Shown piece by piece: positions 5,612 through 32,000 of a stretch of DNA of 32,000 bases. The position numbers were made by a program, and so were the translations under genes. The stretch comes from Promethearchaeota archaeon (lineage in GTDB: Archaea > Asgardarchaeota > Lokiarchaeia > Sigyniarchaeales > Promethearchaeaceae), in the NCBI GenBank assembly GCA_016933055.1, contig JAFGBS010000001.1, positions 120,001 to 152,000 of the forward strand. The letters run 5' to 3'. Each line of letters starts with the position of its first letter. Position 1 is the stretch's first letter. The notes beneath the pieces are model-generated. The model saw nothing but the letters and a program-made list of their open reading frames with translations. It had not been told where the DNA came from and ran no database searches.

Positions 5612-8268
5612 AATAAATTTCGTAAAACGGTGTGCAAAATGCCCCCATTTTGGTAATATTCTATATCAACCTCGCTATCTAACCGAACTACTGTCTTAAA
5701 TTTAATCATTTTGTTTTCACGTTCCGCTATCACATCAATTTCCGATAAAGGTTTCATAGTTTCGATTCCCAAAATCGAGATCTTCTCAGTTCCGATTAAT
5801 CCAACTGATTGGGCATTTTCTCCTTCTTTAAATTGCAAAGGTAGAACCCCCATACCTACTAGGTTACTTCTATGGATTCTTTCATATGAGGTGGCAATCA
5901 CAACTTTCACTCCTAATAACCATGTTCCTTTCGCAGCCCAATCGCGACTGCTTCCCATCCCATAATCTTTCCCCGCAATCACTACTGCGGGGATTCTCTT
6001 TTCGATATATTTCATCGCTGCGGTGTATATAGGCAATTCCTCCCCGGTTGGGTGATAAATGGTCCATCCTCCCTCTCTATCCACTAGTAAATTCCGAATT
6101 CTGATGTTCCCAAATGTACCTCGCATCATCACTTCATGATTTCCTCGACGGGATCCAAAGGAATTGAAATCCTCCGGATTTACTCCTTTTTTGATCAGAT
6201 ATCTCCCAGCTGGCATATCTTTAGGAATTGAACCTGCAGGGGAGATATGGTCGGTTGTGACACTTTCACCCAAGAGAGCTAATATTCGAGCTTCTTTTAT
6301 ATTTTCTAAATCGGGAATTTCTACGGGGAAATCCTTGAAAAAAGGAGGTTCTCGAATATAAGTAGAATTCTCATCCCATTGGTACACACTCTCTTGAGGT
6401 GTTTCTAATTTGTTCCAAAGATCCCAGCCTTTGAAAATTTCTCCATATTCTTCTTGAAATAAATCTGGTTTAACATATTCCGCAACCAATTTTTGAATTT
6501 CATCTGAATCTGGCCAAATATCTTTTAAGAAAACTGGTGTTCCATCTTCAGTCAAACCTAGTGGTTCTTTTTCCAAGTTTATCGCTACAGTTCCTGCTAT
6601 TGCAAATACTACCACTAATGGTGGAGAAGCAAGATAATTTGCACGAACATGCGGACTAATTCTTCCCTCAAAATTCCGATTTCCACTTAATACTGACGTA
6701 ACCGCAAGATCTTTTTCAATAATTTGTCTTACTATTTCCGTATCCAATGGTCCGCTATTCCCAATGCACGTAGTACAACCATATCCTACCAGATAAAATC
6801 CAAGTTTCTCTAAATATTTCATCAATCCAGAATTTTCCATGTAATCGGTAACTACTCGAGAACCTGGAGCAAAAGAGGTCTTAACAAAAGGTTTCACTTT
6901 CAATCCTTTTTGAACTGCATTCCGTGCAAGTAACCCGGCTCCAATCATTACGGAGGGATTAGATGTATTTGTACAAGACGTGATTGCTGCTATAACAATT
7001 GAACCATTATTTAAAGTGGAACCATCCGATATTAAATCTAATTCAACAGATTTGTCTAGATATGTTTTCATTGTTTTTCTAAATGCATTTTTCATCTCTT
7101 TAAGCATAATTCGGTCCTGCGGTCTTTTCGGACCTGCTAAACTTGACTCTACGGAGGTTAAATCGAATTCTATTAATTCATTATAATCGGGTATGGATTG
7201 CCCGTCAGTATAAAACAATCCCACTTTTTTAAGGTAGGTTTCAACAAGCTCTACATGGTCCACGTTCCGACCGCTTAAACGGAGATAATTTAAAGTCTCT
7301 TGGGTGGCGGGGAAATAATTCATAGTAGAACCGCATTCAGGAGCCATGTTTGCTATGGTTGCCCTATCGGGTAGTGAGAGAGTATTTAAACCCGGGCCAA
7401 AGAATTCAACAAACTTTTCCACCACACCGATCTCACGAAGTTTTTCTGTAATTGCCAAAACAACATCCGTGGCAGTAATCCCTTCTTTTAATTTTCCTAC
7501 TAATTTTACCCCCACTACTTCGGGAATATTCATATAATAGGGTTGTCCAAGCATAACTGCTTCTGCTTCTATTCCTCCTACCCCCCATCCTAAACAACTA
7601 AGTCCATTGATCATAGTGGTATGTGAATCAGTACCAATACAAGAATCAGGATATACCACGATTTCTCCATTTACGTCCCGTTTGTCAACAATCTTGCCCA
7701 GATATTCTAAGTTCACTTGGTGGCAAATACCTCGACTTGTTGGAACTACTCGGAAATTCTTTAATTTTTCTTGTGCCCATTTCAATAGAATGTATCGCTC
7801 CCGATTCCGCTCCATTTCATATTCTTCGTTTTTCTGTCGTGCGTTTGTGGAATCTGCAAAGTCTACTTGAATGGAATGGTCGATCACCAAATCAACGGGA
7901 TTTACCGGATTGATTTTTTCAGGGTCCCTTCCTGCGCGTTCCATCGCAGATCGTAAAGCGGCTAAATCAACAACAGCTGGAACTCCTGTGAAATCTTGTA
8001 GTAATACGCGGGTGGGTATAAAGGCTATTTCTGAATCCGAACTATTTTTAGTATCCCACTTACATAACGCCATCAGATGATTCTTAGTAACTAACTTTCC
8101 ATCCAGATTGCGTAAAATATTTTCAAGCAGTATCCGATGGGAATAAGGGAGTTTGCTAATTTTTACTAATTTTAACTCTTCCAATTTTTTTATATTATAA
8201 ATCGTTACTTTTCCCATGCTTGTGGGTATTTTTTCTTTAGTGTTGGCTTGAATTTCAATCATGTGCAT
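5602..8268 (-). CDS. acnA: Aconitate hydratase, AcnA/IRP1 family
   Basis: LLQDFTGVPAVVDLA, DHSIQVD, GICHQVNLE, GTDSHTT, the three cluster Cys (SCTNTSNP; GCTTCIGNSG), TTDHISPAG, GSSRDWAAKG; 888 aa. Alternative start at 8262. Confidence 0.97.
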   Translation of the reverse strand: MHMIEIQANTKEKIPTSMGKVTIYNIKKLEELKLVKISKLPYSHRILLENILRNLDGKLVTKNHLMALCKWDTKNSSDSEIAFIPTRVLLQDFTGVPAVVDLAALRSAMERAGRDPEKINPVNPVDLVIDHSIQVDFADSTNARQKNEEYEMERNRERYILLKWAQEKLKNFRVVPTSRGICHQVNLEYLGKIVDKRDVNGEIVVYPDSCIGTDSHTTMINGLSCLGWGVGGIEAEAVMLGQPYYMNIPEVVGVKLVGKLKEGITATDVVLAITEKLREIGVVEKFVEFFGPGLNTLSLPDRATIANMAPECGSTMNYFPATQETLNYLRLSGRNVDHVELVETYLKKVGLFYTDGQSIPDYNELIEFDLTSVESSLAGPKRPQDRIMLKEMKNAFRKTMKTYLDKSVELDLISDGSTLNNGSIVIAAITSCTNTSNPSVMIGAGLLARNAVQKGLKVKPFVKTSFAPGSRVVTDYMENSGLMKYLEKLGFYLVGYGCTTCIGNSGPLDTEIVRQIIEKDLAVTSVLSGNRNFEGRISPHVRANYLASPPLVVVFAIAGTVAINLEKEPLGLTEDGTPVFLKDIWPDSDEIQKLVAEYVKPDLFQEEYGEIFKGWDLWNKLETPQESVYQWDENSTYIREPPFFKDFPVEIPDLENIKEARILALLGESVTTDHISPAGSIPKDMPAGRYLIKKGVNPEDFNSFGSRRGNHEVMMRGTFGNIRIRNLLVDREGGWTIYHPTGEELPIYTAAMKYIEKRIPAVVIAGKDYGMGSSRDWAAKGTWLLGVKVVIATSYERIHRSNLVGMGVLPLQFKEGENAQSVGLIGTEKISILGIETMKPLSEIDVIAERENKMIKFKTVVRLDSEVDIEYYQNGGILHTVLRNLLKK

Positions 8269-8341
8269 TCTATCGTTCCTATATTTTTAAATATGTCTTT
8301 ATCGGTAGATCAGATAATCCATGCAGTAATTTAATTCTACT

Positions 8342-8351
8342 TTTTATAAAA
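8342..8351 (-). promoter_or_regulatory. Candidate TATA box (TTTTATAAAA palindrome) for acnA
   Basis: Lies in the 140-nt gap about 75 nt upstream of the acnA start, suggesting acnA has its own promoter. Confidence 0.35.
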
Positions 8352-8408
8352 GATTACAAATTTAGAGTTGCTGGCAGAGAAAAAGGAAAGTCATCAGACA
8401 TATAGATA

Positions 8409-9470
8409 TTACACTCGTTGCAAAACCTCACTAGATATCTTTTCTAAATTCTTACAGTTGGTCATCAACATTGCTTTTTTTAAGGTCTCTCTCAAATATT
8501 CCATATGAACCCGAACCCCCGCAGAACCAGCACCAACTGCTGCACGAATTAAATCTCTACCAACTAATACACTTTCTGCACCAAGAGCTAGCATTTTTAA
8601 CACATCATAGCCCGTGCGTATACCTCCATCTGCCATTATTTTGATCTTTCCTTTTACTTCCGATGCAATCTCTTGAAGCACATCTGCAGTTCCAGGAGTA
8701 TGATCCAATACTCTACCTCCATGATTACTAACCACTATTCCTGCTGCGCCAGTATTAACAGCAATCAGGGCATCTTCGATAGTCATTACACCTTTTATGA
8801 TCACCGGTAAACTAGTAGCTTGAACTAAATCTCGAATTTCTTCAGGGGATTTTCGATACACGAGTTGGTTATGAGTTTTCATTGCATAACTTCCAGCGCC
8901 ATCGATATCAATACCAACAGCAAGTGCACCTGCCTCTTCCGCTTTCTTGAAAAATTCAATGAGTAATTCTTGTTTTATAGGTTTACATATTTTTACTCCC
9001 CAACCCCTCGCTTCCTTAATTGCATTAATGCCAAAAGGTGTATTCAAAGAATAAGTATAAGTATGTCCCCGCCATCCTATTGTTCCAGCTTCTTTACAGC
9101 CTAAAACAATGGAGTGACAAAAATCTTGTTCAGAAATAACGGTATCTCCTCCGAAACTCTTCACTCCAGAAGTACTTGCTCCCATGATTGGCATAGAAGT
9201 TTCATACCCAAAAAAAGAATAATTTGTGTCGGGTTCAAAATGTTCCCCAATAAGACGCATTTTAAGTTGAAATTTTTCCAATGCTAAAATATTATTATGG
9301 AATGAAGCTCCAGAACCGACTCCCCCTATTCCTAAAGATGACTTATATGATTGATTCTGACATAAACGAGATGGATCTCCATCGCAAATTTTATAAACTC
9401 CGCAAATTCCTTTTAATTTTTCTTTTGCTTGTTTTCGTACATCTTCTAGGGATAACTTTTCCTTTGTCAT
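8409..9470 (-). CDS. FMN-dependent alpha-hydroxy-acid oxidoreductase (glycolate oxidase/L-lactate dehydrogenase superfamily, anaerobe-type)
   Basis: IIKGVMT (FMN Lys), VVSNHGGRVLD (catalytic His/Arg), DGGIRTGYD, VLVGR; N-terminal Cys-rich segment. ATG 9470 is preceded by GAGG and lies 10 nt after the fumC stop; the track start at 9503 overlaps fumC. Confidence 0.9.
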   Translation of the reverse strand: MTKEKLSLEDVRKQAKEKLKGICGVYKICDGDPSRLCQNQSYKSSLGIGGVGSGASFHNNILALEKFQLKMRLIGEHFEPDTNYSFFGYETSMPIMGASTSGVKSFGGDTVISEQDFCHSIVLGCKEAGTIGWRGHTYTYSLNTPFGINAIKEARGWGVKICKPIKQELLIEFFKKAEEAGALAVGIDIDGAGSYAMKTHNQLVYRKSPEEIRDLVQATSLPVIIKGVMTIEDALIAVNTGAAGIVVSNHGGRVLDHTPGTADVLQEIASEVKGKIKIMADGGIRTGYDVLKMLALGAESVLVGRDLIRAAVGAGSAGVRVHMEYLRETLKKAMLMTNCKNLEKISSEVLQRV

Positions 9471-9480
9471 TATTTTTTCC

Positions 9481-23200: not shown

Positions 23201-23331
23201 ACATTCATTATACTTTACCCATTTATTACCCCGCTTCTAAGCCGATATTGTATAGTTTAGGGAATTTAACCAAAATTTTATATCGTTCTATACTTTTTCC
23301 TTCTCAAATTCTAGCTTTTAAAGTGAGCAGC

Positions 23332-24672
23332 ATGAAGAAAAAATCTGTAATAATTATCGGCGCATTAGGCATGGACTTCCATGTATTTAACACCGTATTT
23401 CGAGACAACGAGGAATATAATGTTATTGCATTTACTATTGCAGGAGAACAAAATGTTGGTACTACCGAGAATGCAGAACGTAAATATCCTTCTGAACTAG
23501 CGGGTGTACTCTATCCAAATGGAATTCCGATGGTACCTGAAACTGAATTGATCTCCATGATAAAGAAACATAATGTAGATGAAGTGGTTTTTGCCTACTC
23601 TGATGTTTCTCATGAAGAAGTAATGCATAAAGCCTCCCGAACACTTGCAGCGGGTGCAAATTATCGGTTAATTTCAAAAAGATTCACGATGATTAAGGCT
23701 AAAAAACCCGTTGTAGCTATTTGTGCGGTTCGTACGGGGTGTGGAAAATCTCAAGTGTCTCGAGCAACCTACCGCTACTTAAAATCCAAGGGACATCGGG
23801 TTGTAGCTATTAGAGAACCGATGCCGTATGGTGATTTGGTAGAACAAGAAGTTATGCGATTCGCAACTTATGAAGACCTTGATAAATACAAATGTACAAT
23901 CGAAGAAAGGGAAGAATATGAGCCGTATATTGAACAAGGTTTGGTTATTTACAGTGGCGTTGATTATGAGAAAATTGTGAGAGAAGCGGAGAAAGAAGCT
24001 GATGTAATTGTGTTTGATGGAGGAAATAACGAAATTTCTTTCTATGTTCCCGATTTGCAATTTGTAGTCGTAGATCCGCTTCGACCAGGTCACGAGATGA
24101 AATATCATCCCGGAGAAGTAAACGCGCGTTTAGCAGATGCGTTTGTCATTAATAAAATGAATAGTGCAAAACCAGAGAATGTTGCAATAGTTGATAAAAA
24201 TCTGGATGAATTAAATCCAAAAGCGATGAGAATTTATACAGATTCCGTAGTAACAGTCGATAACGTCAAAGAAATTAAAGGTAAACGAGCTATAGTGGTG
24301 GAGGACGGCCCAACATTAACTCACGGGAATATGGCTTATGGGGCAGGGTATATTGCTGCTAAAAACAACGATGTAACCATAGTGGATCCAAAACCACATA
24401 TTGTAGGTACTATGAAAAAAGTGTTTGAAGAATTTCCACAAATTACTGAAATCGTACCCGCTATGGGATATAATGATGAACAAATCCGAGATATGCAAAC
24501 GACACTAAATAACATTGACGCAGACATTATCATAGATGGGTCTCCAATTGACTTGGCAAAATTAGTGAAAGTAAATAAACCGATCTATCGAGTGTACTAT
24601 GACATTGAATCTATCCAATCTCCAAGTATAGAGGATGCCTTAGATAAATTTATTGCAAAACACCTTAATTAA
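23332..24672 (+). CDS. P-loop ATP-dependent ligase of the cDPGS / arginine synthetase (ArcE)-like family, with divergent motifs
   Basis: P-loop AVRTGCGKS; AYSDVSH; PMPYGDL; TIEEREEYEP; DGGNN; HPGE; VEDGPTLTHG; PAMGY. The start ATG 23332 (MKKKSVIIIG) is preferred over TTG 23248. Confidence 0.85.
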   Translation: MKKKSVIIIGALGMDFHVFNTVFRDNEEYNVIAFTIAGEQNVGTTENAERKYPSELAGVLYPNGIPMVPETELISMIKKHNVDEVVFAYSDVSHEEVMHKASRTLAAGANYRLISKRFTMIKAKKPVVAICAVRTGCGKSQVSRATYRYLKSKGHRVVAIREPMPYGDLVEQEVMRFATYEDLDKYKCTIEEREEYEPYIEQGLVIYSGVDYEKIVREAEKEADVIVFDGGNNEISFYVPDLQFVVVDPLRPGHEMKYHPGEVNARLADAFVINKMNSAKPENVAIVDKNLDELNPKAMRIYTDSVVTVDNVKEIKGKRAIVVEDGPTLTHGNMAYGAGYIAAKNNDVTIVDPKPHIVGTMKKVFEEFPQITEIVPAMGYNDEQIRDMQTTLNNIDADIIIDGSPIDLAKLVKVNKPIYRVYYDIESIQSPSIEDALDKFIAKHLN

Positions 24673-24701
24673 TCCTCTTTCTTTGTTCTACTTTCTTTTT
24701 T
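24673..24701 (+). terminator. Pyrimidine/oligo-T terminator candidate
   Basis: TCCTCTTTCTTTGTTCTACTTTCTTTTTT immediately after the stop codon. Confidence 0.45.
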
Positions 24702-24881
24702 AATTTCAAGCTTTTTAATCATTATCGACAGAATAAAAAATAGTTAAAATCTTGCTTATTTAATGGGATTCGTTTGGGAATTACTCCAAAACCCTATTCT
24801 CCTTTACTTATAACAACATCCCCAAAAGTTTTTTATTTTCTCGAAAGGTATATTGCTTATCTTGTTTTGGAGTGTGGATAG

Positions 24882-27065
24882 ATGATTCTATCTGAAATGA
24901 AATATGAAATGCATCCTATAGAAAAGGGATATAATAATCGCACTTTATATGTGAATCTTACAACAAACGAAATTCAAATTAAACTCGTTACCCAAGGAAT
25001 GAAAGAAACATTCACTGGAGGTAAAGGGTTTGATCTTTGGTTAATGTGGAACTCGTTGCCGAAAGATCGAATTGTAAAGTGGAATGATCCCGAAAACGAA
25101 ATTTGTATAGCTTCGGGACCACTTTCTGGTACTAACTTCATCCCAGGTTCTGGAAAATCAATTGTTACTACTATATCCCCTTTAACGGGAATGATTATTG
25201 ATTCAAATGTAGGGGGGTTCTATGGTCCTTTCCTAAAATATTCCGGGTTTGATGCAATTGAGATCCAAGGAAAAGCAAAAGAAGAAGTTGTTGTTTTTGT
25301 TGATGGCGAGAATCATGTTGTTCGGATTGAAACAGCGGAAAACACCCCTAAATATTCACATGAACTCACTCAATACCTCACTAATAATTTTTCCCCTGAA
25401 GATAATCCAGCAGATAAGTATCGTGTTTCAGTTGTTTCCACGGGTCCTGCTGCCGGCTACACTAACTGGGGGTTGTTGAATTTTAGCTGGTATATTCGAC
25501 CCCGGGAATGGGCTTCGTATAAACAAGCGGGTCGGGGGGGAATTGGCACTGTGTTTAAAGATAAAAACATCAAAGCTTTAATTTGCTTGTCCCCCAAAAA
25601 ACCCCAACGTGATGTAGGTGCTGCAAATAAGGATATTGCACGAAATTCGGGAGCTAAACATAACAAAGAAATTATTACTAATGATCCAAAGCAAAATCAA
25701 ATGCGGCAGATTGGAACGGGACACCTTCCTATCATTATGAATGAATATGATCTTTTACCTACAGAAAACTATCGATTTGGAAGACATCGGACTTGGAGTG
25801 AAGAAGAGGGTGAATTTCCGTACTCTTGGGATGTCTGGAAAACCTTTATGATTGATGAACATGGTCTTAGTGGATGTTGGACGGGGTGTACTATTGCTTG
25901 CTCGCATTTTTCTCCTAATCACACTTTACTGACAGGTCCACTCAAAGGACAGGTAGTCCCTATTGATGGTCCCGAATATGAAACTATTGCAGGTTGCGGG
26001 TCAAATTGGGGGGTCTGGGATCCGAAATGGATTCTGGAAGTCAATTTTTACTGTGATACCTATGGGCTTGATACCATTTCAGTGGGAACTGGTATTGCAT
26101 TTGTAATGGAGTGTTATGAATCCGGAATTCTGAATAAGGAAATTACCGGTGGTTTAGAATTGAACTTTGGAAATGCAGAAGCTGCAATGGAATTAGTTCA
26201 TCAAATGGCTCGTGGTGAGGGCTTTGGGATGATTGTTGGAAAAGGTATTCGTCAAATGAAGAAAATTTTTGCTGATAATTATGGTGGAGACCCCCAATTT
26301 CTCCAAGATATCGGAATGGAGCATAAAGGACTTGAAGTTTCTGAATATATGACCAAGGAATCTATTGCCCAACAAGGTGGCTATGGATTCACACTTAAAG
26401 GGCCTCAACACGATGAAGCGTGGCTCATATTCGAGGATATGGTAAGAAAGTCAATTCCAACGTTTGAGGATAAAGCTAATGCGCTGTGTTGGTTTCCGTT
26501 CTTTAGAACTTGGTTTGGGTTGAATGGATTATGTAAATTACCATGGAATGATGTGCAACCTCCAGATAATAAAGATAATCCTATAAAAGATGAGAACGGA
26601 GAACTATATCGGGCACGTATTCCCAAGCATGTACAGTTCTACGCGGATTATGCTGAAGGAATTACCGGTGTACCAACTACACCTGAAGATCTTGTAAAGA
26701 GAAGTGAAGTTGTATATAATTTCCAACGTATTTTCAATATTCGACAAGGGCACGGATTGCGGAACGACGATGCAAATTTTCCGTATCGTGGTATGGGACC
26801 GGTTACTCCCTTGGAATATGAAAGTCGGAAGAGTCGTTATGACACTCAGTTGAAAGAGATTTTAGGAATCGATCCTACCGATAAAACAACAGAGGAAAAA
26901 ATTAGGAACTTACGGAAATATAGAGAGGAGCAATACACGAAATTGCAAAATGTTGTATATGAGAAACGCGGATGGAGTAAGCACGGTTGTCCGACCATTG
27001 AGAAAGTTAAAGAACTCGGAATTGATTTTGAAGACGTGCTTAAGGTCATTCAACCATACCAATAA
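24882..27065 (+). CDS. Tungsten/molybdenum aldehyde:ferredoxin oxidoreductase family protein (long 727-aa type)
   Basis: GPLSGT..PGSGK, SPLTG.I.DSNVGG, LKYSGFDAI, GRGGIGTVF..KNIKA, Cys cluster CWTGCTIAC, GPEYET, CDTYGLDTIS, HKGLE, GLCK, Y..RGW...G.P. Confidence 0.93.
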   Translation: MILSEMKYEMHPIEKGYNNRTLYVNLTTNEIQIKLVTQGMKETFTGGKGFDLWLMWNSLPKDRIVKWNDPENEICIASGPLSGTNFIPGSGKSIVTTISPLTGMIIDSNVGGFYGPFLKYSGFDAIEIQGKAKEEVVVFVDGENHVVRIETAENTPKYSHELTQYLTNNFSPEDNPADKYRVSVVSTGPAAGYTNWGLLNFSWYIRPREWASYKQAGRGGIGTVFKDKNIKALICLSPKKPQRDVGAANKDIARNSGAKHNKEIITNDPKQNQMRQIGTGHLPIIMNEYDLLPTENYRFGRHRTWSEEEGEFPYSWDVWKTFMIDEHGLSGCWTGCTIACSHFSPNHTLLTGPLKGQVVPIDGPEYETIAGCGSNWGVWDPKWILEVNFYCDTYGLDTISVGTGIAFVMECYESGILNKEITGGLELNFGNAEAAMELVHQMARGEGFGMIVGKGIRQMKKIFADNYGGDPQFLQDIGMEHKGLEVSEYMTKESIAQQGGYGFTLKGPQHDEAWLIFEDMVRKSIPTFEDKANALCWFPFFRTWFGLNGLCKLPWNDVQPPDNKDNPIKDENGELYRARIPKHVQFYADYAEGITGVPTTPEDLVKRSEVVYNFQRIFNIRQGHGLRNDDANFPYRGMGPVTPLEYESRKSRYDTQLKEILGIDPTDKTTEEKIRNLRKYREEQYTKLQNVVYEKRGWSKHGCPTIEKVKELGIDFEDVLKVIQPYQ

Positions 27066-27083
27066 ATCGGAAGAAACCACCAA

Positions 27084-29180
27084 ATGAAGGATATTCAAGA
27101 ACACCCGATTTTAACCATACCAGAACGCAAGAAAATTTCTTTCACGTTCAATGGAGTACCACTAATGGGATATGAGGGAATTGTTATTTCCTCCAATCTT
27201 TTTCTCAATGGTATTAAGATATTTGGACATCATGAAAAAGATAATTCTCCCCAAGGCATTTTTTGTTGCATGGGGCAATGTTCGCAATGCATGGTTCTCG
27301 TAAACGGGCAAGCTATGAAATCTTGTATGACACCATTAAAAGAGGGTATGCAGATTGAAAGCTGTGAGGGGTTGCCAGAACTTCCAGCTCGCGATTCACC
27401 AAGAGAAACTCAACAAATTGAAATCCTTAAAGTAAATACCCTCATAATCGGGGCGGGACCCTCGGGATTATCCGCTGCTAAAACTCTGGGTGAAAAAGGA
27501 GTGGAAATATTACTTATTGATGATAAGGATAGAGTTGGAGGTAAACTAGTGTTGCAAACGCACAAATTCTTTGGTTCTCAAGAGGATGTGTATGCGGGAA
27601 AGCGAGGAATAGAAATCGCAGATATTTTGGGTGATCAGGTAAAAATACTAGAATCGGTTAGGATCTGGTTAAACTCTACTGCTGTAGGATTATTTAGCGA
27701 TGGATTTGTAGGAATTCTCAAAGATCATGACACGTATGTTCTAGTAAAACCAGAAAACTTACTGATCGCAACCGGTGCTCGTGAAAAAATGCTTGTTTTT
27801 CCTGGAAATACTCTACCGGGAGTGTATGGAGCGGGGGCCTTCCAAGTTCTAGTAAATAGAGATCTTGTGAAACCTGCAGAACAAGTGTTTATTGTAGGGG
27901 GGGGAAATGTGGGCTTGATTGCAGGATATCATGCGATCCAAGCTGGAATTGAGGTGATTGGATTAATAGAAGCACTTCCACAATGCGGTGGTTATAAAGT
28001 TCATGAAGAAAAACTCAGACGATTGGGAGTTCCTATATACACCAGTTATACAATTGTCTCTGCAAATGGAAAAAACCGAGTTGAATCCATAACCATAGGA
28101 AAAATTGATGAAAATTGGATGCTAATTCCCGGAACAGAACGAACCTATAAATGTGATACGATTCTGATTGCGGTCGGATTGAATCCTGTGGATGAGTTTT
28201 ATACGAAAGCGAAAGAATATGGATATAGTGTATGGATCTGCGGGGATGCTCAAGAAATTGCGGAAGCTTCCGCTGCAATATTTACAGGTAGAATTGAAGC
28301 GATAAAGATTCTTAATAAAATGGGGGTGGATATTTCTGATTGTGATGAACTTACATATCTTGAACAAAAAGCTACCATCATGAAAACTCACCCCCCCTCC
28401 CCTACAGAATTCGCATGTCCCGATAAAGAAGAAGGTATTTTTCCTGTTTTTCATTGTACCCAAGAGATTCCCTGCAATCCTTGTACAACAGTGTGCCCAC
28501 AAGGTCAAATCCATACTATAAATGATGCTATTGACAAGCTTCCGTATTTTAAAGGAGAAAAAGAGTGTATTGGATGTGGTGCTTGCGTTGCCGTCTGTCC
28601 TGGGCTTGCAATTACGCTAGTAGACTATCGAAGAGACCCTCAAAATCCACATGTTACATTCCCTATGGAATTAACTGAAGAAAAAATCAAAAAAGGATCT
28701 ACAATAATTGTAGCTAGTGAAGACGGAAACTTGGGAAAATACGATGTTATCCATTCACGTATTTTACCTCAATTTCCCAAAACCCATTTAGTCACTGTAC
28801 AACTTCCCGCGAATATTGCAAAATTAGCAACAGCGATTAAATTAGTCCCTAAAAAGCAGACTACCATCGAGCCTATCGATTTGTATAAATCTGAACGTAT
28901 TGAAGATGATGAAATTGTATGTCGATGTGAACGAGTGACTGCAGCTACGGTACGGATGTGGATACGGAAAGGTGTTAAAGATTTCAATGAACTGAAGGGT
29001 TTAACGAGAGTGGGCATGGGTTCTTGCCAAGGAAAAACGTGTATACCTATCATAATGCGTATTTTTAGAGACGAAGGCGTTCCTATTGACGAAGTTACCG
29101 AAAACACCATTCGTCCCTTATATATGGAAGTCCCCTTAGGAACTTTCGCGGGGGTCAAAAGGGAGGATGAGAATACATGA
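27084..29180 (+). CDS. Fused Fe-S flavoprotein: [2Fe-2S] + FAD/NAD(P) reductase + 2x[4Fe-4S] + BFD-like [2Fe-2S] (sarcosine oxidase-alpha / proline dehydrogenase-alpha-like)
   Basis: FCCMGQCSQC...SC; GAGPSG; ATGAREK; GGGNVG; CTQEIPCNPCTTVCP and CIGCGACVAVCP; VCRCERV...GMGSCQGKTC. Confidence 0.88.
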   Translation: MKDIQEHPILTIPERKKISFTFNGVPLMGYEGIVISSNLFLNGIKIFGHHEKDNSPQGIFCCMGQCSQCMVLVNGQAMKSCMTPLKEGMQIESCEGLPELPARDSPRETQQIEILKVNTLIIGAGPSGLSAAKTLGEKGVEILLIDDKDRVGGKLVLQTHKFFGSQEDVYAGKRGIEIADILGDQVKILESVRIWLNSTAVGLFSDGFVGILKDHDTYVLVKPENLLIATGAREKMLVFPGNTLPGVYGAGAFQVLVNRDLVKPAEQVFIVGGGNVGLIAGYHAIQAGIEVIGLIEALPQCGGYKVHEEKLRRLGVPIYTSYTIVSANGKNRVESITIGKIDENWMLIPGTERTYKCDTILIAVGLNPVDEFYTKAKEYGYSVWICGDAQEIAEASAAIFTGRIEAIKILNKMGVDISDCDELTYLEQKATIMKTHPPSPTEFACPDKEEGIFPVFHCTQEIPCNPCTTVCPQGQIHTINDAIDKLPYFKGEKECIGCGACVAVCPGLAITLVDYRRDPQNPHVTFPMELTEEKIKKGSTIIVASEDGNLGKYDVIHSRILPQFPKTHLVTVQLPANIAKLATAIKLVPKKQTTIEPIDLYKSERIEDDEIVCRCERVTAATVRMWIRKGVKDFNELKGLTRVGMGSCQGKTCIPIIMRIFRDEGVPIDEVTENTIRPLYMEVPLGTFAGVKREDENT

Positions 29181-30343
29181 CCTTTTACGATGTAATTATC
29201 GTTGGAGCGGGTAGTATCGGCACACCTACCGCAATGGCATTAGCAAATGCAGGAGTAAAAACTTTGGTTGTTGATAAACTACCATCCGTTGCTCAAGGGG
29301 ACAATAAACATGCCATAGGAGGAATTCGCGCTACACATTCCCAAAAAAGCAAAATTCTCGTTTGCCAGCGTTCTTTAGAAATATTTTCTACTTGGGAAGA
29401 ATTATATGGAGATGATATCTGGTGGGTAGAAGGTGGATATTCCTTTGTTGCGCGATCTGTAGAACACGAACGCCTTCTAAGAGAAACAGTAGAAATTCAG
29501 AAAGAGTATGGATTGAACATCAGTTTTTTGGATGCTGAACAGATTCAGGAACTTATACCTGGAATAAATCCCATTGGTTTGCATGGTGGTACATATAGCC
29601 CAGAAGATGGGAATGCTTCTCCTCTTTATAGTGTACACGCATTCTACGATAATGCTACCAGAAACGGGGCAGAATTTAAGTTTAAAGAGCAAGTCAAGAA
29701 CATCCTAACTAAAAACAGACACGTTGTCGGTGTTAGGACTGACAAAGCTGATTATCAAGCTTCCTTTGTGATTAATGCAGCTGGTGGTAACGGAAAAGAA
29801 ATCGCTAAAATGGTGGATGTTAATGTTCCTTTAGAACCGGAATCTCATGAAGCGGGTATAACTGAAGGAGTAAAATATTTTTTGAGACCAATGGTAGTAG
29901 ATATTCAGCCAGGAACAGATCCCACCTTCGGTAATTCAAAAAATTATTATTTCTATCAAAATAAATTCGGGAAGATAATTTTCTGTATAACCCCAAATCC
30001 GAGTGTTAAAGGAAAGGATAGAACAGAAACTAGTTTTTTTCTTCCCCAAATAGCAAAACGAATGGTTGATCTGATGCCTCGACTCAGCAATATAAAAGTT
30101 CGTCGTCAGTGGAGAGGATTGTACCCGATGACTCCTGATGGAATTCCAATTGTTGGAACAGTAAAGAATATTGCTGGATATATAAATGCAGTAGGGATGT
30201 GTGGTCAAGGTTTTATGTTAGGCCCTGGATTGGGGGAAGTTCTTTGCCGTTTGGTAGAAAAAAAAATTACATCCCAAGACAAGGAAATACTAAAAGAATT
30301 CTCCCTTTATCGTGATTTTGGCAGTGAAGAGAAATTAAAATAA
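29177..30343 (+). CDS. DAO-family FAD-dependent amine/amino-acid dehydrogenase (sarcosine oxidase-beta / L-proline dehydrogenase-beta-like)
   Basis: GAGSIG, GGIRATHS, DGNASP, INAAGG, WRGLYPMTPDGIPIVG, GMCGQGFMLGP; ATGA overlap with the upstream gene. Confidence 0.88.
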   Translation: MTFYDVIIVGAGSIGTPTAMALANAGVKTLVVDKLPSVAQGDNKHAIGGIRATHSQKSKILVCQRSLEIFSTWEELYGDDIWWVEGGYSFVARSVEHERLLRETVEIQKEYGLNISFLDAEQIQELIPGINPIGLHGGTYSPEDGNASPLYSVHAFYDNATRNGAEFKFKEQVKNILTKNRHVVGVRTDKADYQASFVINAAGGNGKEIAKMVDVNVPLEPESHEAGITEGVKYFLRPMVVDIQPGTDPTFGNSKNYYFYQNKFGKIIFCITPNPSVKGKDRTETSFFLPQIAKRMVDLMPRLSNIKVRRQWRGLYPMTPDGIPIVGTVKNIAGYINAVGMCGQGFMLGPGLGEVLCRLVEKKITSQDKEILKEFSLYRDFGSEEKLK

Positions 30344-30361: not shown

Positions 30362-31159
30362 CTACGTTTTATTTCTTTTTATTTTCCAGTATATTATAAT
30401 ATAAATAGAAAGTATTAGAAATAATATAACTCGTAAGATTTCTACTCGGGTGGACGGACCGAATAATTCTCCTGCTAGATTGTTGGAAAAATGTAGAATC
30501 ATCGCAGATATCATGCTAAATTTAGTTTTCTGAAATACAAAAGTTATGATGAACGTAAATAAAAAAGCGGAGATCATGTATATATAAAAATTGGTTGTGA
30601 AGATTCCTAAACCATTTTGATAGGTACCTGAAATTAAGAACAGAGGTATGTGCCAAAAAGACCAGAAAATACCAAGAATACTGGAAGATAACGTTGCGTT
30701 TACATTGTCCAATAATTTGGGTAATGCATAAGCTCTCCATCCAAACTCCTCGATGAGAACTGTAATAAGTCCAAACCCGATTATTGAAAAAACCCCATAA
30801 AAATCTTGCCCTAGATTAACTATATTCGAAAATTGAATGGAATACCCGAAAAACAAAATATCCAATAGAATTGCAGTGATAATTATCATAAATGGCCCAA
30901 AAAGGCTGATGAAGAACCATAGGAACGATATTCGTTTCACGTCTGTAAATCTCAGCCAGTATTCAGCACGCTTTGTTTTATTCTCAAAAAATGAAAGAAT
31001 TATCCCGACACAAGAAGGTGCAATTCCTCCAAATGCATAAAGAACGAAGACATACCAAATTGAAAGTGGTTGGTTTATTATTATGGCAATAATCCAACAT
31101 AACCAGCTCCATACATATGTAAACACGAAAAATAAAACTAGATCTCTATAATTTTTCAT
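30362..31159 (-). CDS. CPBP (CAAX/Rce1/Abi) family intramembrane glutamic metalloprotease
   Basis: About 7-8 hydrophobic segments; EEFGWR (EExxxR), FWSFWH (FxxxH), HFSNN (HxxxN). ATG 31159; the track starts at GTG 31168. Confidence 0.9.
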   Translation of the reverse strand: MKNYRDLVLFFVFTYVWSWLCWIIAIIINQPLSIWYVFVLYAFGGIAPSCVGIILSFFENKTKRAEYWLRFTDVKRISFLWFFISLFGPFMIIITAILLDILFFGYSIQFSNIVNLGQDFYGVFSIIGFGLITVLIEEFGWRAYALPKLLDNVNATLSSSILGIFWSFWHIPLFLISGTYQNGLGIFTTNFYIYMISAFLFTFIITFVFQKTKFSMISAMILHFSNNLAGELFGPSTRVEILRVILFLILSIYIIIYWKIKRNKT

Positions 31160-31202
31160 TCTTATCACTAAATTTACCTATCTAATAGTTAAAAATCACA
31201 AT

Positions 31203-31305: not shown

Positions 31306-32000
31306 ATGGTTAGACATCTCACTAAAATTTCTGATTTTACGAAAAAAGAATGTGATTTTATCATCCACAAGGCAATCGAGATGAAAAAAACACCCGAAAA
31401 ATTCTATGCTACTTTGCAACATAAAACTATGTTAATGATTTTCGAAAAACCCTCCTTACGAACTCGAGTCTCCTTTGAGACTGGATTAAATCAATTAGGT
31501 GGGCATGCAATTTACTACTCTATTAAGGATTCCCCTCTTGGAAAGAAAGAAAATATTGCAGATACAGCCCGATGCGCCAGTAGATATGTGGATATCATTG
31601 GAGCTCGTGTTTTTAAAAGACAAGATGTATGGAATCTTGCACAGTATTCGGATGTTCCAGTGATCAATATGTTAGATGACTTCGCACACCCATGTCAGAT
31701 TTTGTGTGATTTCCAAACAATCTTGGAGAAAAAGGGACGATTAGAAAATCTTAAACTCTCCTATTTCGGGGATGCGTATAATAACGTAACTTATGATTTG
31801 ATGAGAATAGCAGCGATCTATGGTTTGGAAATGGATGTGGCATGCCCTACCGGAGGAGAATATTCTCCCGAACAAGGTGTATTGAATGAAATTGCGAAAT
31901 TATCTGAAAAATCTGATGCAAAAGTGCGAGTGGTGCACGATGCATTAGAAGCAGCAAAAGAATCGGATGTATTATATACTGATTCATGGATGAGTTACGG
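31306..32000 (+). CDS. argF: Ornithine carbamoyltransferase (ArgF/ArcB), 3'-truncated by the window edge; not in the supplied ORF track
   Basis: Hand translation: MVRHLTKISDF...FEKPSLRTRVSFE...LGGHAIYY...KENIADTAR...INMLDDFAHPCQILCD...YFGDAYNNVTYDLMR...YTDSWMSY; open for 231 codons to the window end. Confidence 0.95.
   Translation, partial: MVRHLTKISDFTKKECDFIIHKAIEMKKTPEKFYATLQHKTMLMIFEKPSLRTRVSFETGLNQLGGHAIYYSIKDSPLGKKENIADTARCASRYVDIIGARVFKRQDVWNLAQYSDVPVINMLDDFAHPCQILCDFQTILEKKGRLENLKLSYFGDAYNNVTYDLMRIAAIYGLEMDVACPTGGEYSPEQGVLNEIAKLSEKSDAKVRVVHDALEAAKESDVLYTDSWMSY

What the first reader, a model, noticed from the sequence alone, without database searches (positions are those of the whole stretch)
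24882..30343. AOR + Fe-S flavoprotein + amine dehydrogenase operon: candidate oxygen-free amine-to-acid oxidation module
The three genes are tightly coupled (18-nt gap; ATGA overlap). DAO-type beta subunits oxidise amines to imines, which hydrolyse to aldehydes, and W-AORs oxidise aldehydes to acids with ferredoxin. Inference: a two-step pathway such as proline -> P5C/glutamate-5-semialdehyde -> glutamate (feeding the neighbouring 2-oxoglutarate enzymes), sarcosine -> formaldehyde -> formate, or glycine -> glyoxylate -> oxalate. The beta subunit has GMCGQGFM where proline dehydrogenases typically have GxSGHGFM, so the substrate is open.
Basis: inference. Interest (0 to 1): 0.6.

Follow-up and report, generated by a model that had tools for sequence, protein, structure and literature searches.

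The report
Tungsten aldehyde oxidoreductase coupled to proline-dehydrogenase-like flavoenzyme
An Asgard archaeon carries a divergent tungsten-type aldehyde oxidoreductase next to a two-subunit iron-sulfur flavoenzyme resembling archaeal proline dehydrogenase, inserted in an arginine-breakdown operon; the same pairing recurs in sulfate-reducing bacteria, which suggests an oxygen-free route from proline or ornithine to glutamate.

Summary
The AOR-family gene is at 24882-27065. After an 18-nt gap comes a 698-aa Fe-S flavoprotein (alpha, 27084-29180), then an ATGA overlap and a 388-aa DAO-family beta subunit (29177-30343).

- **AOR:** a separate clade, 21-27% identical to the genome's eight other AORs. 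It has a Cx3Cx3C cluster motif and intact catalytic residues.
- **Alpha/beta:** both are closest to the Pyrococcus horikoshii L-proline dehydrogenase complex (1y56). Alpha adds two [2Fe-2S] sites and a 2x[4Fe-4S] domain.
- **Context:** the triplet lies between arcE-like and arcB in an arcE-arcB-arcC-ornithine aminotransferase operon. Two same-family genomes have that operon uninterrupted.
- **Conservation of linkage:** about 22 of 44 Asgard genomes that have alpha. In 24 Desulfobacterota loci the same AOR clade is linked in another order (alpha-beta-AOR, or divergent), beside GntR, ProC or ornithine-cyclodeaminase genes.

Best reading: alpha-beta oxidises proline to P5C, and the AOR oxidises glutamate semialdehyde to glutamate. 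This rests on context only. Substrate, direction and physical association are untested. First-stage readers noted the same triplet on other genomes.

The parts
23248..24672 (+). ArcE-like gene (arginine synthetase / 'putative GTPase' family). It is the upstream flank of the triplet. The true start is probably at residue 26 (about 23323).
   Evidence: No Pfam or NCBIfam hit. The ESM Atlas puts it in 'putative GTPase' clusters at score 0.99 and TM 0.98, and holds the sequence from residue 26. It has weak similarity to cyclic 2,3-diphosphoglycerate synthetase 9sxb, E 1.8e-4; PMC11032458 names that family as the distant relative of ArcE and reports arcE homologues in Lokiarchaeota. It is contiguous with OTC, carbamate kinase and OAT in two same-family genomes.
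24673..24881 (.). 209-nt AT-rich spacer upstream of the AOR gene. It holds T/A-rich TATA-like stretches and a GGAG-like motif about 10 nt before the ATG, so the triplet probably has its own promoter.
   Evidence: Read directly from the sequence. No archaeal promoter model was available, so this is inference only.
24882..27065 (+). Divergent AOR/WOR-family tungsten-type (W or Mo not determinable) aldehyde:ferredoxin oxidoreductase, 727 aa.
   Evidence: AFOR_N 2.7e-45 and AFOR_C 4.7e-86. Best solved relative is P. furiosus AOR 1aor, 4.5e-50. Residues matching Thr243, Glu313, Tyr427 and His448 are kept, as is the pterin motif CDxxGxD (residue list from PMC13328260). C332, C336, C340 and C551 are invariant in 45 orthologues. 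It is 21-27% identical to the genome's other 8 AORs and is the only one with Cx3Cx3C.
27084..29180 (+). Alpha subunit, 698 aa. In order it has an N-terminal gamma-type [2Fe-2S] domain, an FAD Rossmann, a second dinucleotide Rossmann, a 2x[4Fe-4S] ferredoxin-like insert, a BFD-type [2Fe-2S] site and an SO_alpha_A3 domain.
   Evidence: Pfam domains. Best solved relatives are 1y56_A (3.7e-20) and SoxA 2gag_A. The motifs can be read in the translation. All 16 cluster cysteines are invariant in 45 orthologues: C61/66/69/81, C458/464/467/471, C495/498/501/505 and C613/615/648/653.
29177..30343 (+). Beta subunit, 388 aa. It is the DAO-family FAD amine dehydrogenase (catalytic subunit) and its start overlaps the alpha stop (ATGA).
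   Evidence: DAO 4e-56. Best solved relative is 1y56_B, the beta chain of the P. horikoshii L-proline dehydrogenase complex, at 2.2e-44; the next best is 5e-19. Of the 80 related loci fetched, 76 show a beta match next to alpha; the other four showed none, at least two of them because the contig ends there. The motif G[ML]CGQG[FLYV]M is found in 78 of 78.
30362..31168 (-). CPBP/Rce1-like intramembrane protease on the opposite strand. It is a window-specific insertion between beta and OTC and is not part of the module.
   Evidence: Rce1-like 1.8e-11. No match to it in the related loci L009, L025, L026 or L053, where OTC is the next matched gene after beta, directly in L009 and L026.
31306..32000 (+). 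Ornithine carbamoyltransferase (arcB). It runs off the window and is 310 aa in the genome. Beyond the window follow a cyclase-like gene, carbamate kinase (arcC) and ornithine aminotransferase.
   Evidence: TIGR00658 358.5 bits against a cut-off of 280.85. Carbamate kinase scores 310 on NF009007 (cut-off 266). OAT scores 518 on TIGR01885 (cut-off 378.4).

Best explanation
The three genes form a functionally coupled, oxygen- and quinone-independent module acting at the proline / P5C / glutamate-5-semialdehyde node. Alpha-beta is a fused-subunit relative of the archaeal heteromeric L-proline dehydrogenase. Beta-FAD oxidises L-proline, or a very similar cyclic amine, to the cyclic imine P5C. Electrons leave through FMN/FAD and the four Fe-S clusters of alpha. 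P5C is in equilibrium with glutamate semialdehyde, which the ornithine aminotransferase of the surrounding arginine-synthetase operon also produces. The clade-specific AOR oxidises that aldehyde to glutamate and passes low-potential electrons to ferredoxin or to the ferredoxin-like domain of alpha. Glutamate then feeds the neighbouring 2-oxoglutarate and TCA enzymes. What is shown: the gene anatomy, the cofactor-binding residues, the family relationships and the conserved linkage and context. What is inferred: the substrates, the direction and any physical complex.
For: 1. The AOR and alpha-beta are adjacent in two domains of life, in different orders.
- AOR-alpha-beta with gaps under 100 nt is found in the window and 21 genomes of one Asgard family, out of 44 Asgard genomes that have the long alpha.
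- Eight of the independently fetched Asgard loci show the same order.
- In Desulfobacterota the order is alpha-beta-AOR in 21 loci and divergent in 3.
- The adjacent AOR is always this clade: 53-57% identical, with the same CWxGCxxxC motif. No other AOR paralogue appears there.

2. The triplet is inserted between arcE-like and arcB in an operon whose last gene, ornithine aminotransferase, makes glutamate semialdehyde. Two same-family genomes have arcE-OTC-CK-OAT contiguous without the triplet.

3. Neighbours in the Desulfobacterota loci point to the same node: a GntR/FCD regulator directly upstream in 16 loci, P5C reductase in 12 and an ornithine-cyclodeaminase-family gene in 6. One bacterial alpha-beta locus follows an arginase gene. 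Two Thermoplasmatota loci abut a carbamate-kinase-like gene.

4. Beta is far closer to the L-proline dehydrogenase beta chain 1y56_B (2.2e-44) than to any other solved DAO-family enzyme (5e-19).

5. There is a pathway gap the AOR could fill.
- No PutA-type Pro_dh was found in the window genome.
- TIGR01236 P5C dehydrogenase was found in 0 of 41 genomes of the family that carries the cluster.
- The only ALDH genes in five complete genomes of that family are at most 28% identical to a P5C dehydrogenase and fall below every P5CDH cut-off.
- One Asgard family has OAT plus P5C dehydrogenase (7 of 7) and neither the AOR nor alpha.

6. The AOR keeps all aldehyde-oxidising residues and cluster ligands.

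7. In a same-family genome, the unlinked AOR orthologue is preceded by a 130-aa polyferredoxin. This shows the clade can take a 4Fe-4S partner such as alpha's insert.
Against: No biochemical or expression evidence exists.
- The AOR clade occurs without alpha-beta and without OAT in 31 of 43 genomes of one Asgard family. It also stands alone in several genomes of the family that carries the cluster. Glutamate semialdehyde from these enzymes therefore cannot be its only substrate.
- Alpha-beta occurs without the AOR in Heimdallarchaeia-like genomes, Chloroflexota, Acidobacteriota, Aminicenantes, Bipolaricaulota and others.
- The window genome itself encodes a canonical P5C dehydrogenase, TIGR01236 at 747 bits.
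- Four of five Desulfobacterota genomes with the module also have a PutA-type proline dehydrogenase.
- Beta differs from the solved proline dehydrogenase in the conserved GxSGHGFM motif.
- Part of the Asgard linkage could be inherited synteny among related genomes.
Confidence: 0.5

Rival explanations
1. The module logic is the same, but the substrate pair is different. One option is L-pipecolate -> piperideine-6-carboxylate / 2-aminoadipate semialdehyde -> 2-aminoadipate (lysine catabolism). Other options are hydroxyproline, sarcosine -> formaldehyde -> formate, or glycine -> glyoxylate -> oxalate.
For: The beta subfamily has its own signature, G[ML]CGQG[FLYV]M, in place of the GFSGHGFM of the solved proline dehydrogenase. 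Beta stays below every NCBIfam equivalog cut-off, including ThiO, SoxB and D-proline dehydrogenase. Four of five Desulfobacterota genomes with the module already have a PutA-type proline dehydrogenase. The OCD/mu-crystallin family next to some loci also includes lysine cyclodeaminases and ketimine reductases (established knowledge).
Against: The flanking genes point to the five-carbon ornithine/proline node, not to lysine, glycine or sarcosine. These genes are arcE-like, arcB, arcC and OAT in Asgards, ProC in 12 bacterial loci, and arginase in one. No glycine-cleavage, folate or betaine genes were seen next to any of the loci examined.
Confidence: 0.2
2. The coupling is by electrons and the flavoenzyme runs in the opposite direction. 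The AOR oxidises glutamate semialdehyde to glutamate and hands the low-potential electrons through alpha's Fe-S chain to beta. Beta reduces P5C to proline. The net reaction is a dismutation of two P5C into glutamate plus proline, a redox-balanced end to arginine and ornithine fermentation or a route to proline.
For: No ProC was found in the window genome (best hit 25.7 bits against a cut-off of 196.75). None was found in 0 of 21 Heimdallarchaeia-like genomes that have OAT and alpha-beta. In Thermococcus kodakarensis the arginine synthetase pathway supplies ornithine for proline synthesis (PMC11032458). Alpha carries a 2x[4Fe-4S] ferredoxin-like insert suited to accepting low-potential electrons.
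Against: ProC and the triplet co-occur in many genomes of the family that carries the cluster. One genus has ProC in 16 of 16 genomes, and many of these also have the triplet. ProC also lies next to the module in 12 Desulfobacterota loci, which makes a second P5C reductase redundant. A GntR/FCD regulator is typical of catabolic operons. Known members of the flavoenzyme family act as dehydrogenases (PMC4575208).
Confidence: 0.12
3. There is no specific coupling. The AOR is a general single-subunit (Class I type) aldehyde:ferredoxin oxidoreductase for aldehyde detoxification or amino-acid fermentation. It merely lies in a metabolic gene island next to an independent amine dehydrogenase.
For: Both partners occur widely on their own. 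The window block also holds functionally unrelated TCA genes in conserved synteny. Many unclassified AORs in Asgards are thought to have broad roles (PMC11291895).
Against: Linkage of the same two clades recurs in a distant phylum with a rearranged order and gaps of about 10-55 nt. There it sits under a dedicated GntR regulator. In the Asgard lineage the three genes come and go as one unit inside the arc operon. The adjacent AOR is never another AOR paralogue.
Confidence: 0.12

Closest known systems
Dye-linked L-proline dehydrogenase complexes of Thermococcales (P. horikoshii PDH1 alpha4beta4, PDB 1y56; T. profundus alpha-beta-gamma-delta type encoded by pdhA-pdhF-pdhX-pdhB)
   Same: Beta is a DAO-family FAD subunit and alpha is a Pyr_redox_2 subunit with an N-terminal gamma-like domain. 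The two genes are adjacent. 1y56_B and 1y56_A are the best solved relatives. The family also includes opine and D-hydroxyproline dehydrogenases and HCN synthase, which carry FAD, FMN and [2Fe-2S] (PMC4575208).
   Different: Alpha here is 698 aa. It adds an intact gamma-type [2Fe-2S] site, a 2x[4Fe-4S] insert and a BFD-type [2Fe-2S] site in one chain. It may be a fusion equivalent to pdhA+pdhF+pdhX, but this was not tested. Beta has GMCGQGFM instead of GFSGHGFM. It is linked to an AOR, which has not been described for the Thermococcales enzymes.
Tungsten-containing aldehyde:ferredoxin oxidoreductases (P. furiosus AOR 1aor; WOR family Classes I-V of PMC13328260)
   Same: It has the AFOR_N and AFOR_C domains, four Cys for one [4Fe-4S] cluster, the catalytic Thr/Glu/Tyr/His set and pterin-binding motifs.
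   Different: It is about 120 aa longer and has Cx3Cx3C spacing. It is only 21-27% identical to the canonical paralogues in the same genome. It falls far below the GAPOR and YdhV equivalog cut-offs. No WorS polyferredoxin or WorABC genes lie next to it in the window. Its conserved partner is a SoxAB/PDH-type flavoenzyme, a combination that a term search of the classification paper did not find.
ProDH/PutA plus P5C dehydrogenase (canonical two-step proline -> glutamate pathway)
   Same: The proposed overall chemistry is the same: proline -> P5C / glutamate semialdehyde -> glutamate.
   Different: The enzyme families are unrelated. PutA-type Pro_dh (PF01619) was not found in the window genome. 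The canonical P5C dehydrogenase is NAD-dependent. Here the aldehyde step would deliver ferredoxin-level electrons, and the amine step would not need a quinone or O2.
Arginine synthetase pathway of Thermococcus kodakarensis (ArcE-ArcB-ArcC; PMC11032458, PMC13260591)
   Same: The arcE-like, arcB and arcC genes are clustered, and ornithine is the product. ArcE homologues are reported in Lokiarchaeota.
   Different: Here the cluster also holds ornithine aminotransferase and the inserted AOR-alpha-beta triplet. That would extend the pathway from ornithine to glutamate. The ArcE assignment of the window gene is by family resemblance only.
Multi-subunit WORs with flavin subunits (AorABC of Aromatoleum aromaticum; electron-bifurcating Class IV WorLS-WorABC)
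   Same: They set a precedent for a tungsten aldehyde oxidoreductase wired through Fe-S proteins to an FAD/NAD(P) subunit. The low aldehyde/acid potential is used together with NAD reduction (PMC13328260).
   Different: Their partners are polyferredoxin plus NuoF-like or other reductases. None is an amine dehydrogenase. No complex is shown for the present genes.

Membership tests
AOR/WOR family (tungstopterin aldehyde oxidoreductases) | N-terminal (AFOR_N) and C-terminal (AFOR_C) domains | tested here: met
   PF02730 155 bits and PF01314 289.8 bits, both far above their cut-offs.
AOR/WOR family (tungstopterin aldehyde oxidoreductases) | Four Cys ligands of the [4Fe-4S] cluster and the catalytic residues Thr243/Glu313/Tyr427/His448 (PfAOR numbering) | tested here: met
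   The alignment to 1aor shows T, E, Y and H conserved and three Cys with Cx3Cx3C spacing. C332, C336, C340 and C551 are invariant in 45 orthologues. The residue list is from PMC13328260.
AOR/WOR family (tungstopterin aldehyde oxidoreductases) | Tungsten (not molybdenum) in the bis-pyranopterin cofactor | not testable with these tools
   Needs metal analysis of the purified protein.
GAPOR and YdhV subfamilies of the AOR family | Score above the NCBIfam equivalog cut-off | tested here: not met
   GAPOR_Arch scores 58.1 bits against a cut-off of 1300. PRK09849 (YdhV type) scores 90 against 868.
WOR Classes II-V (PMC13328260) | Adjacent WorS polyferredoxin gene, with or without WorABC or membrane subunits | tested here: not met
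   The window neighbours are the arcE-like gene and alpha. A 130-aa polyferredoxin precedes the orthologue only in a same-family genome, G089.
Archaeal heteromeric L-proline dehydrogenase (PDH) | Adjacent alpha (Pyr_redox_2 with N-terminal gamma-like domain) and beta (DAO) genes, most similar to 1y56 A/B | tested here: met
   Domains. 1y56_A scores 3.7e-20 and 1y56_B 2.2e-44, each the best solved hit.
Archaeal heteromeric L-proline dehydrogenase (PDH) | L-proline as substrate and P5C as product | not testable with these tools
   Only context supports it. The C-terminal FAD-region motif differs: GMCGQGFM here against GFSGHGFM in 1y56_B.
Heterotetrameric sarcosine oxidase (SoxABDG) | SoxA and SoxB scores above the family cut-offs, with SoxD and SoxG subunits | tested here: not met
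   TIGR01372 scores 164.7 against 1164 and TIGR01373 scores 97.7 against 529.45. No small delta or gamma subunit ORFs lie between or after the genes.
HCN synthase HcnABC / opine and D-hydroxyproline dehydrogenases (alpha-beta-gamma flavoenzymes) | Separate gamma [2Fe-2S], alpha and beta subunits with the cognate substrate | tested here: inconclusive
   The same domain set is present, but it is fused and has an extra 2x[4Fe-4S] insert. No family-specific models were on hand. The family description is from PMC4575208.
Arginine synthetase pathway cluster (ArcE, ArcB, ArcC) | ArcB and ArcC above the curated cut-offs | tested here: met
   OTC scores 358.5 on TIGR00658 (cut-off 280.85). Carbamate kinase scores 310 on NF009007 (cut-off 266) and 355.9 on TIGR00746, just under its cut-off of 358.25.
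Arginine synthetase pathway cluster (ArcE, ArcB, ArcC) | ArcE orthology of the 474-aa upstream gene | tested here: inconclusive
   No curated model matches it. The supporting observations are the Atlas 'putative GTPase' clusters, weak similarity to cDPG synthetase and co-location with arcB and arcC. No direct comparison with TK2200 was possible.
Ornithine aminotransferase (RocD/OAT) | Score above the TIGR01885 cut-off | tested here: met
   518 bits against 378.4 for the gene at G000:C16:153953-155215, minus strand.

The most novel reading that the evidence does not exclude
The AOR and alpha-beta form one physical, electron-confurcating complex. Electrons at about -500 mV from glutamate-semialdehyde oxidation at the tungsten site merge with high-potential electrons from proline oxidation at beta-FAD. 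They meet on alpha's Fe-S/flavin chain and reduce NAD(P)+ at alpha's second dinucleotide site. The net reaction is proline + 2 H2O + 2 NAD(P)+ -> glutamate + 2 NAD(P)H. This would let strict anaerobes that lack quinone or O2 respiration, Asgard archaea included, oxidise proline. It would also define a sixth, flavoenzyme-coupled class of tungsten oxidoreductase.
Probability: 0.15. Interest if true: 0.85.

Novelty: new variant of a known kind. Interest (0 to 1): 0.62.

Why it matters
According to PMC13328260, only five of 92 clades of tungsten oxidoreductases have a defined physiological role. This finding gives a well-delimited clade a specific, testable role: glutamate-semialdehyde oxidation coupled to a proline-dehydrogenase-like flavoenzyme. 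The clade has a recognisable Cx3Cx3C motif and occurs in Asgard archaea and Desulfobacterota. If the role is right, three things follow. It closes the ornithine/proline-to-glutamate step that is unexplained in many Asgard genomes lacking PutA and P5C dehydrogenase. It extends the recently discovered arginine synthetase pathway to full arginine catabolism with ferredoxin-level electron yield. It shows how amine oxidation can run without oxygen or quinones. Because the module also occurs in Desulfobacterota, a phylum with cultured members, it may become experimentally tractable outside the hard-to-grow Asgard archaea if an isolate carrying it can be found.

Tried and rejected
- **Complex prediction.** AOR plus alpha residues 432-698, each with a 45-row alignment, gave no verdict (score 0.00, controls not run). 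It counts neither for nor against binding.
- **AlphaFold2 model of alpha.** The model built from the 45-row alignment had mean pLDDT 63.6 and the Fe-S domains were below 50. It was too poor for fold searches and was not used.
- **Search for naturally split alpha forms.** The 'shorter' search returned mostly contig-end fragments or frameshifted long-read genes. It gave no evidence for separate gamma or delta subunits.
- **An interim conclusion, now rejected.** After I concluded that AOR linkage was confined to one Asgard order and could be mere synteny. The genome-contig scan overturned this.
- **Complementarity of ProC with alpha-beta.** This was not found: both occur together in many genomes.
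- **Literature.** No paper in the library holds both 'glutamate semialdehyde' and 'aldehyde ferredoxin oxidoreductase'. No relevant paper was found for P5C + tungsten + ferredoxin oxidoreductase.
- **Placement in the published 92-clade WOR tree.** This could not be done because no reference sequences were on hand.
- **Comparison with pdhF/pdhX and TK2200.** This was not possible for the same reason.

Full report
**Observation**

They are 24882-27065 (727 aa), 27084-29180 (698 aa) and 29177-30343 (388 aa), all on the + strand. The gap between the first two is 18 nt, and ATGA forms a stop/start overlap between the second and third. Pfam assigns AFOR_N + AFOR_C to the first gene. The second has Fer2_4, Pyr_redox_2, a 4Fe-4S dicluster, Fer2_BFD and SO_alpha_A3. 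The third has DAO. The window belongs to a 3.76-Mb, 91%-complete genome. Its closest protein relatives carry Lokiarchaeota, Promethearchaeota, Hodarchaeales and similar names, so it is an Asgard archaeon.

**The AOR**

Its best solved relative is the Pyrococcus furiosus AOR (1aor, 4.5e-50). The alignment keeps the residues that the recent WOR classification paper lists as typical of aldehyde-oxidising members: Thr243, Glu313, Tyr427 and His448 (PMC13328260; alignment). Four cysteines (C332, C336, C340, C551) are invariant in 45 orthologues.

It is not a member of any named subfamily. It scores far below the GAPOR and YdhV equivalog cut-offs. It is only 21-27% identical to the eight other AOR paralogues of the same genome. 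It alone has a Cx3Cx3C cluster motif. In a tree the clade is separated from three canonical paralogues by a very long branch.

**The flavoenzyme**

Beta matches the beta chain of the P. horikoshii L-proline dehydrogenase complex (1y56_B, 2.2e-44) far better than any other solved DAO-family enzyme (next best 5e-19). Alpha matches 1y56_A and sarcosine oxidase alpha about equally. Both stay well below the SoxA and SoxB family cut-offs.

Alpha is an unusually complete electron-transfer subunit. In order it carries:
- a gamma-type [2Fe-2S] motif;
- an FAD Rossmann;
- a second GxGxxG dinucleotide site;
- a 2x[4Fe-4S] ferredoxin-like insert;
- a BFD-type [2Fe-2S] motif.

All 16 cluster cysteines are invariant in 45 orthologues. 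Published work describes the related opine, D-hydroxyproline and proline dehydrogenases and HCN synthase as alpha-beta(-gamma) enzymes with FAD, FMN and [2Fe-2S] (PMC4575208). The Thermococcus profundus alpha-beta-gamma-delta enzyme is encoded by pdhA-pdhF-pdhX-pdhB (PMC4364671). That the long alpha equals such a fusion is my inference and was not tested.

**Surroundings in the window genome**

Upstream lies a TCA cluster with ATP-citrate lyase, 2-oxoglutarate:ferredoxin oxidoreductase and other genes. Directly upstream of the AOR is a 474-aa gene with no Pfam or NCBIfam hit. An earlier first-stage note called it ArcE-like.

I could support that only at family level:
- The Atlas places it in 'putative GTPase' clusters.
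- It has weak similarity to cyclic 2,3-diphosphoglycerate synthetase.
- The arginine synthetase paper reports exactly these annotations and relationships for ArcE, and reports homologues in Lokiarchaeota (PMC11032458).

Downstream of beta come, in order:
- an oppositely oriented CPBP protease;
- ornithine carbamoyltransferase;
- a cyclase-like gene;
- carbamate kinase;
- an ornithine aminotransferase above its equivalog cut-off.

The same block, arcE-like, AOR, alpha, beta, OTC, CK and OAT, is found in related genomes. Two genomes of the window's own family have arcE-like, OTC, CK and OAT contiguous without the triplet. The triplet is therefore an insertion into an operon whose end product is glutamate semialdehyde/P5C.

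**Conservation in Asgard archaea**

I surveyed 201 Asgard genomes.
- The AOR orthologue was found in 91 and the long alpha in 44.
- The AOR lies immediately upstream of alpha in the window and 21 genomes of one family. One more has a 1.4-kb insertion between them, and one is split by a contig end.
- In about 20 genomes that have alpha, the genes are unlinked or the AOR was not found. These include the complete Candidatus Heimdallarchaeum aukensis genome.
- One family has the AOR in 31 of 43 genomes but no alpha and no OAT.

Taken alone, this pattern would be compatible with inherited synteny.

**Conservation beyond Asgards**

A scan of one genome per prokaryotic species with the alpha alignment returned 80 loci. 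The long alpha-beta pair is widespread in anaerobes at 52-58% identity. The groups include Desulfobacterota, Chloroflexota, Acidobacteriota, Aminicenantes, Bipolaricaulota and Thermoplasmatota.

In 24 Desulfobacterota loci the same AOR clade is adjacent, but in another arrangement. It is 53-57% identical and carries the same CWxGCxxxC motif. The order is alpha-beta-AOR in 21 loci, with gaps of roughly 10-55 nt where I looked. In 3 loci the AOR is divergent upstream. None of the seven other AOR paralogues used as probes was ever the adjacent gene.

The neighbours in these Desulfobacterota loci were counted by sequence clustering and tblastn, with one representative of each confirmed by Pfam:
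- a GntR/FCD regulator directly upstream of alpha in 16 loci;
- P5C reductase in 12;
- an ornithine-cyclodeaminase-family gene in 6;
- a class-III aminotransferase plus an ALDH in 2.

One further bacterial alpha-beta locus follows an arginase gene. Two Thermoplasmatota loci abut a carbamate-kinase-like gene.

In the trees, the Desulfobacterota AORs form one clade (99% support). Most Desulfobacterota alphas form another clade. Linkage therefore persists through rearrangement in two domains. This is the strongest argument for functional coupling. The neighbours in both domains point to the ornithine/proline/P5C node.

**Pathway-gap evidence**
- No PutA-type Pro_dh domain was found in the window genome.
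- TIGR01236 P5C dehydrogenase was found in 0 of 41 genomes of the family that carries the cluster. It was found in 7 of 7 genomes of another family that has OAT but neither the AOR nor alpha.
- The only ALDH-superfamily genes in five complete cluster-bearing genomes are at most 28% identical to a P5C dehydrogenase. They fall below every P5CDH cut-off.

Counter-evidence:
- The window genome itself has a bona fide P5C dehydrogenase on another contig (747 bits).
- Four of five Desulfobacterota genomes with the module also have a PutA-type enzyme.
- ProC shows no complementary distribution with alpha-beta.

**Mechanism**

I consider the following most likely (about 0.5).
- Beta-FAD oxidises proline, or a close cyclic amine, to P5C.
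- P5C opens to glutamate semialdehyde, which OAT also makes from ornithine.
- The AOR oxidises the aldehyde to glutamate.
- Electrons go to ferredoxin and/or through alpha's Fe-S chain.

The aldehyde/acid couple lies near -500 mV and NAD near -280 mV (PMC13328260). From memory, the proline/P5C couple is far more positive, about -0.1 V. A coupled or confurcating arrangement would therefore make thermodynamic sense in organisms without quinone or O2 respiration. This is speculation.

In a same-family genome the unlinked AOR orthologue is preceded by a 130-aa polyferredoxin. This shows the clade can work with a 4Fe-4S partner, which alpha's insert could replace.

The rivals are:
- the same logic with another substrate pair, such as pipecolate/aminoadipate semialdehyde, sarcosine or glycine;
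- a reversed flavoenzyme that dismutates P5C to glutamate plus proline;
- no specific coupling at all.

**Comparison with what is known**

The parts belong to known families: the WOR/AOR family and PDH/SoxAB/Hcn-type flavoenzymes. The novelty lies in four things: the divergent AOR clade, the all-in-one alpha, their conserved pairing and the implied physiological role. In the text I read and term-searched, the 2026 WOR classification (Classes I-V) does not describe a partner of this kind. No paper in the library links glutamate semialdehyde with an aldehyde:ferredoxin oxidoreductase. I rate it a new variant of a known kind.

First-stage readers of this scan noted the same triplet, and in some cases the same idea, on other genomes. 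Those notes were unchecked.

**What failed or was unavailable**
- The complex prediction gave no verdict.
- The alpha model was of low confidence.
- Reference sequences for the published WOR clades, for PdhF/PdhX and for TK2200 were not on hand.

Noticed in passing
L130:53-3045 and 7001-10038 (deltaproteobacterial MAG, CP070673.1): ATP-citrate lyase AclA and AclB (59-60% identical to the window's) and isocitrate dehydrogenase (69%) lie a few kb upstream of alpha-beta in a bacterium. This echoes the ACL-ICDH-...-alpha-beta neighbourhood of the Asgard window and may reflect inter-domain transfer of a larger block.
   Followed up: no
L050:6996-9065: In an archaeal MAG contig that also carries mtrA, alpha is called as two genes (333 and 354 aa) separated by one in-frame stop codon. 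Several Asgard alpha matches also contain a single in-frame TAA or TGA. This could be sequencing error, pseudogenes or recoding.
   Followed up: no
L023:8441-8833 (G089, same family as the window): The AOR orthologue (54% identical, not linked to alpha-beta) is preceded, 16 nt upstream, by a 130-aa multi-[4Fe-4S] polyferredoxin. That is a WorS-like small subunit for this clade.
   Followed up: partly
window 30362-31168 (-) and L030:2256-2879: Two genes interrupt the arc cluster in this genome. One is a CPBP/Rce1-like protease on the opposite strand between beta and OTC. The other is a cyclase/arylformamidase-like gene between OTC and carbamate kinase. A cyclase match also occurs in the AMARA_1 MAG (L053), but not in L009, L025 or L026.
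   Followed up: partly
G000:C17:640373-641953: The window genome has a TIGR01236-type P5C dehydrogenase (747 bits). This type was not found in any of 41 genomes of the neighbouring family or in the 2 other genomes of its own family, so it may be a lineage-specific acquisition.
   Followed up: partly
201 Asgard genomes: P5C reductase ProC (TIGR00112) was found only in three families (30/41, 6/10 and 1/2) and in none of the other 24. How most Asgards make proline is unclear.
   Followed up: no
L075:6534-7454 and L078:10231-11151 (Thermoplasmatota): A carbamate-kinase-like gene (43-46% identical to the window genome's) lies directly downstream of alpha-beta on the opposite strand. This is another arginine-pathway association of the flavoenzyme without an AOR.
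   Followed up: no
L030:10796-11938 (-) = G000:C16:160796-161938: An Ldh_2-family dehydrogenase lies about 9 kb downstream of the triplet (PF02615 at 1.1e-114; best NCBIfam hit is sulfolactate dehydrogenase, below its cut-off). To my knowledge the family also includes pyrroline-2-carboxylate reductases.
   Followed up: no
L033:7821-9050: In one genome where the AOR stands alone, a MoeA (molybdopterin molybdenum/tungsten transferase) gene lies next to it, which fits the pterin cofactor.
   Followed up: no
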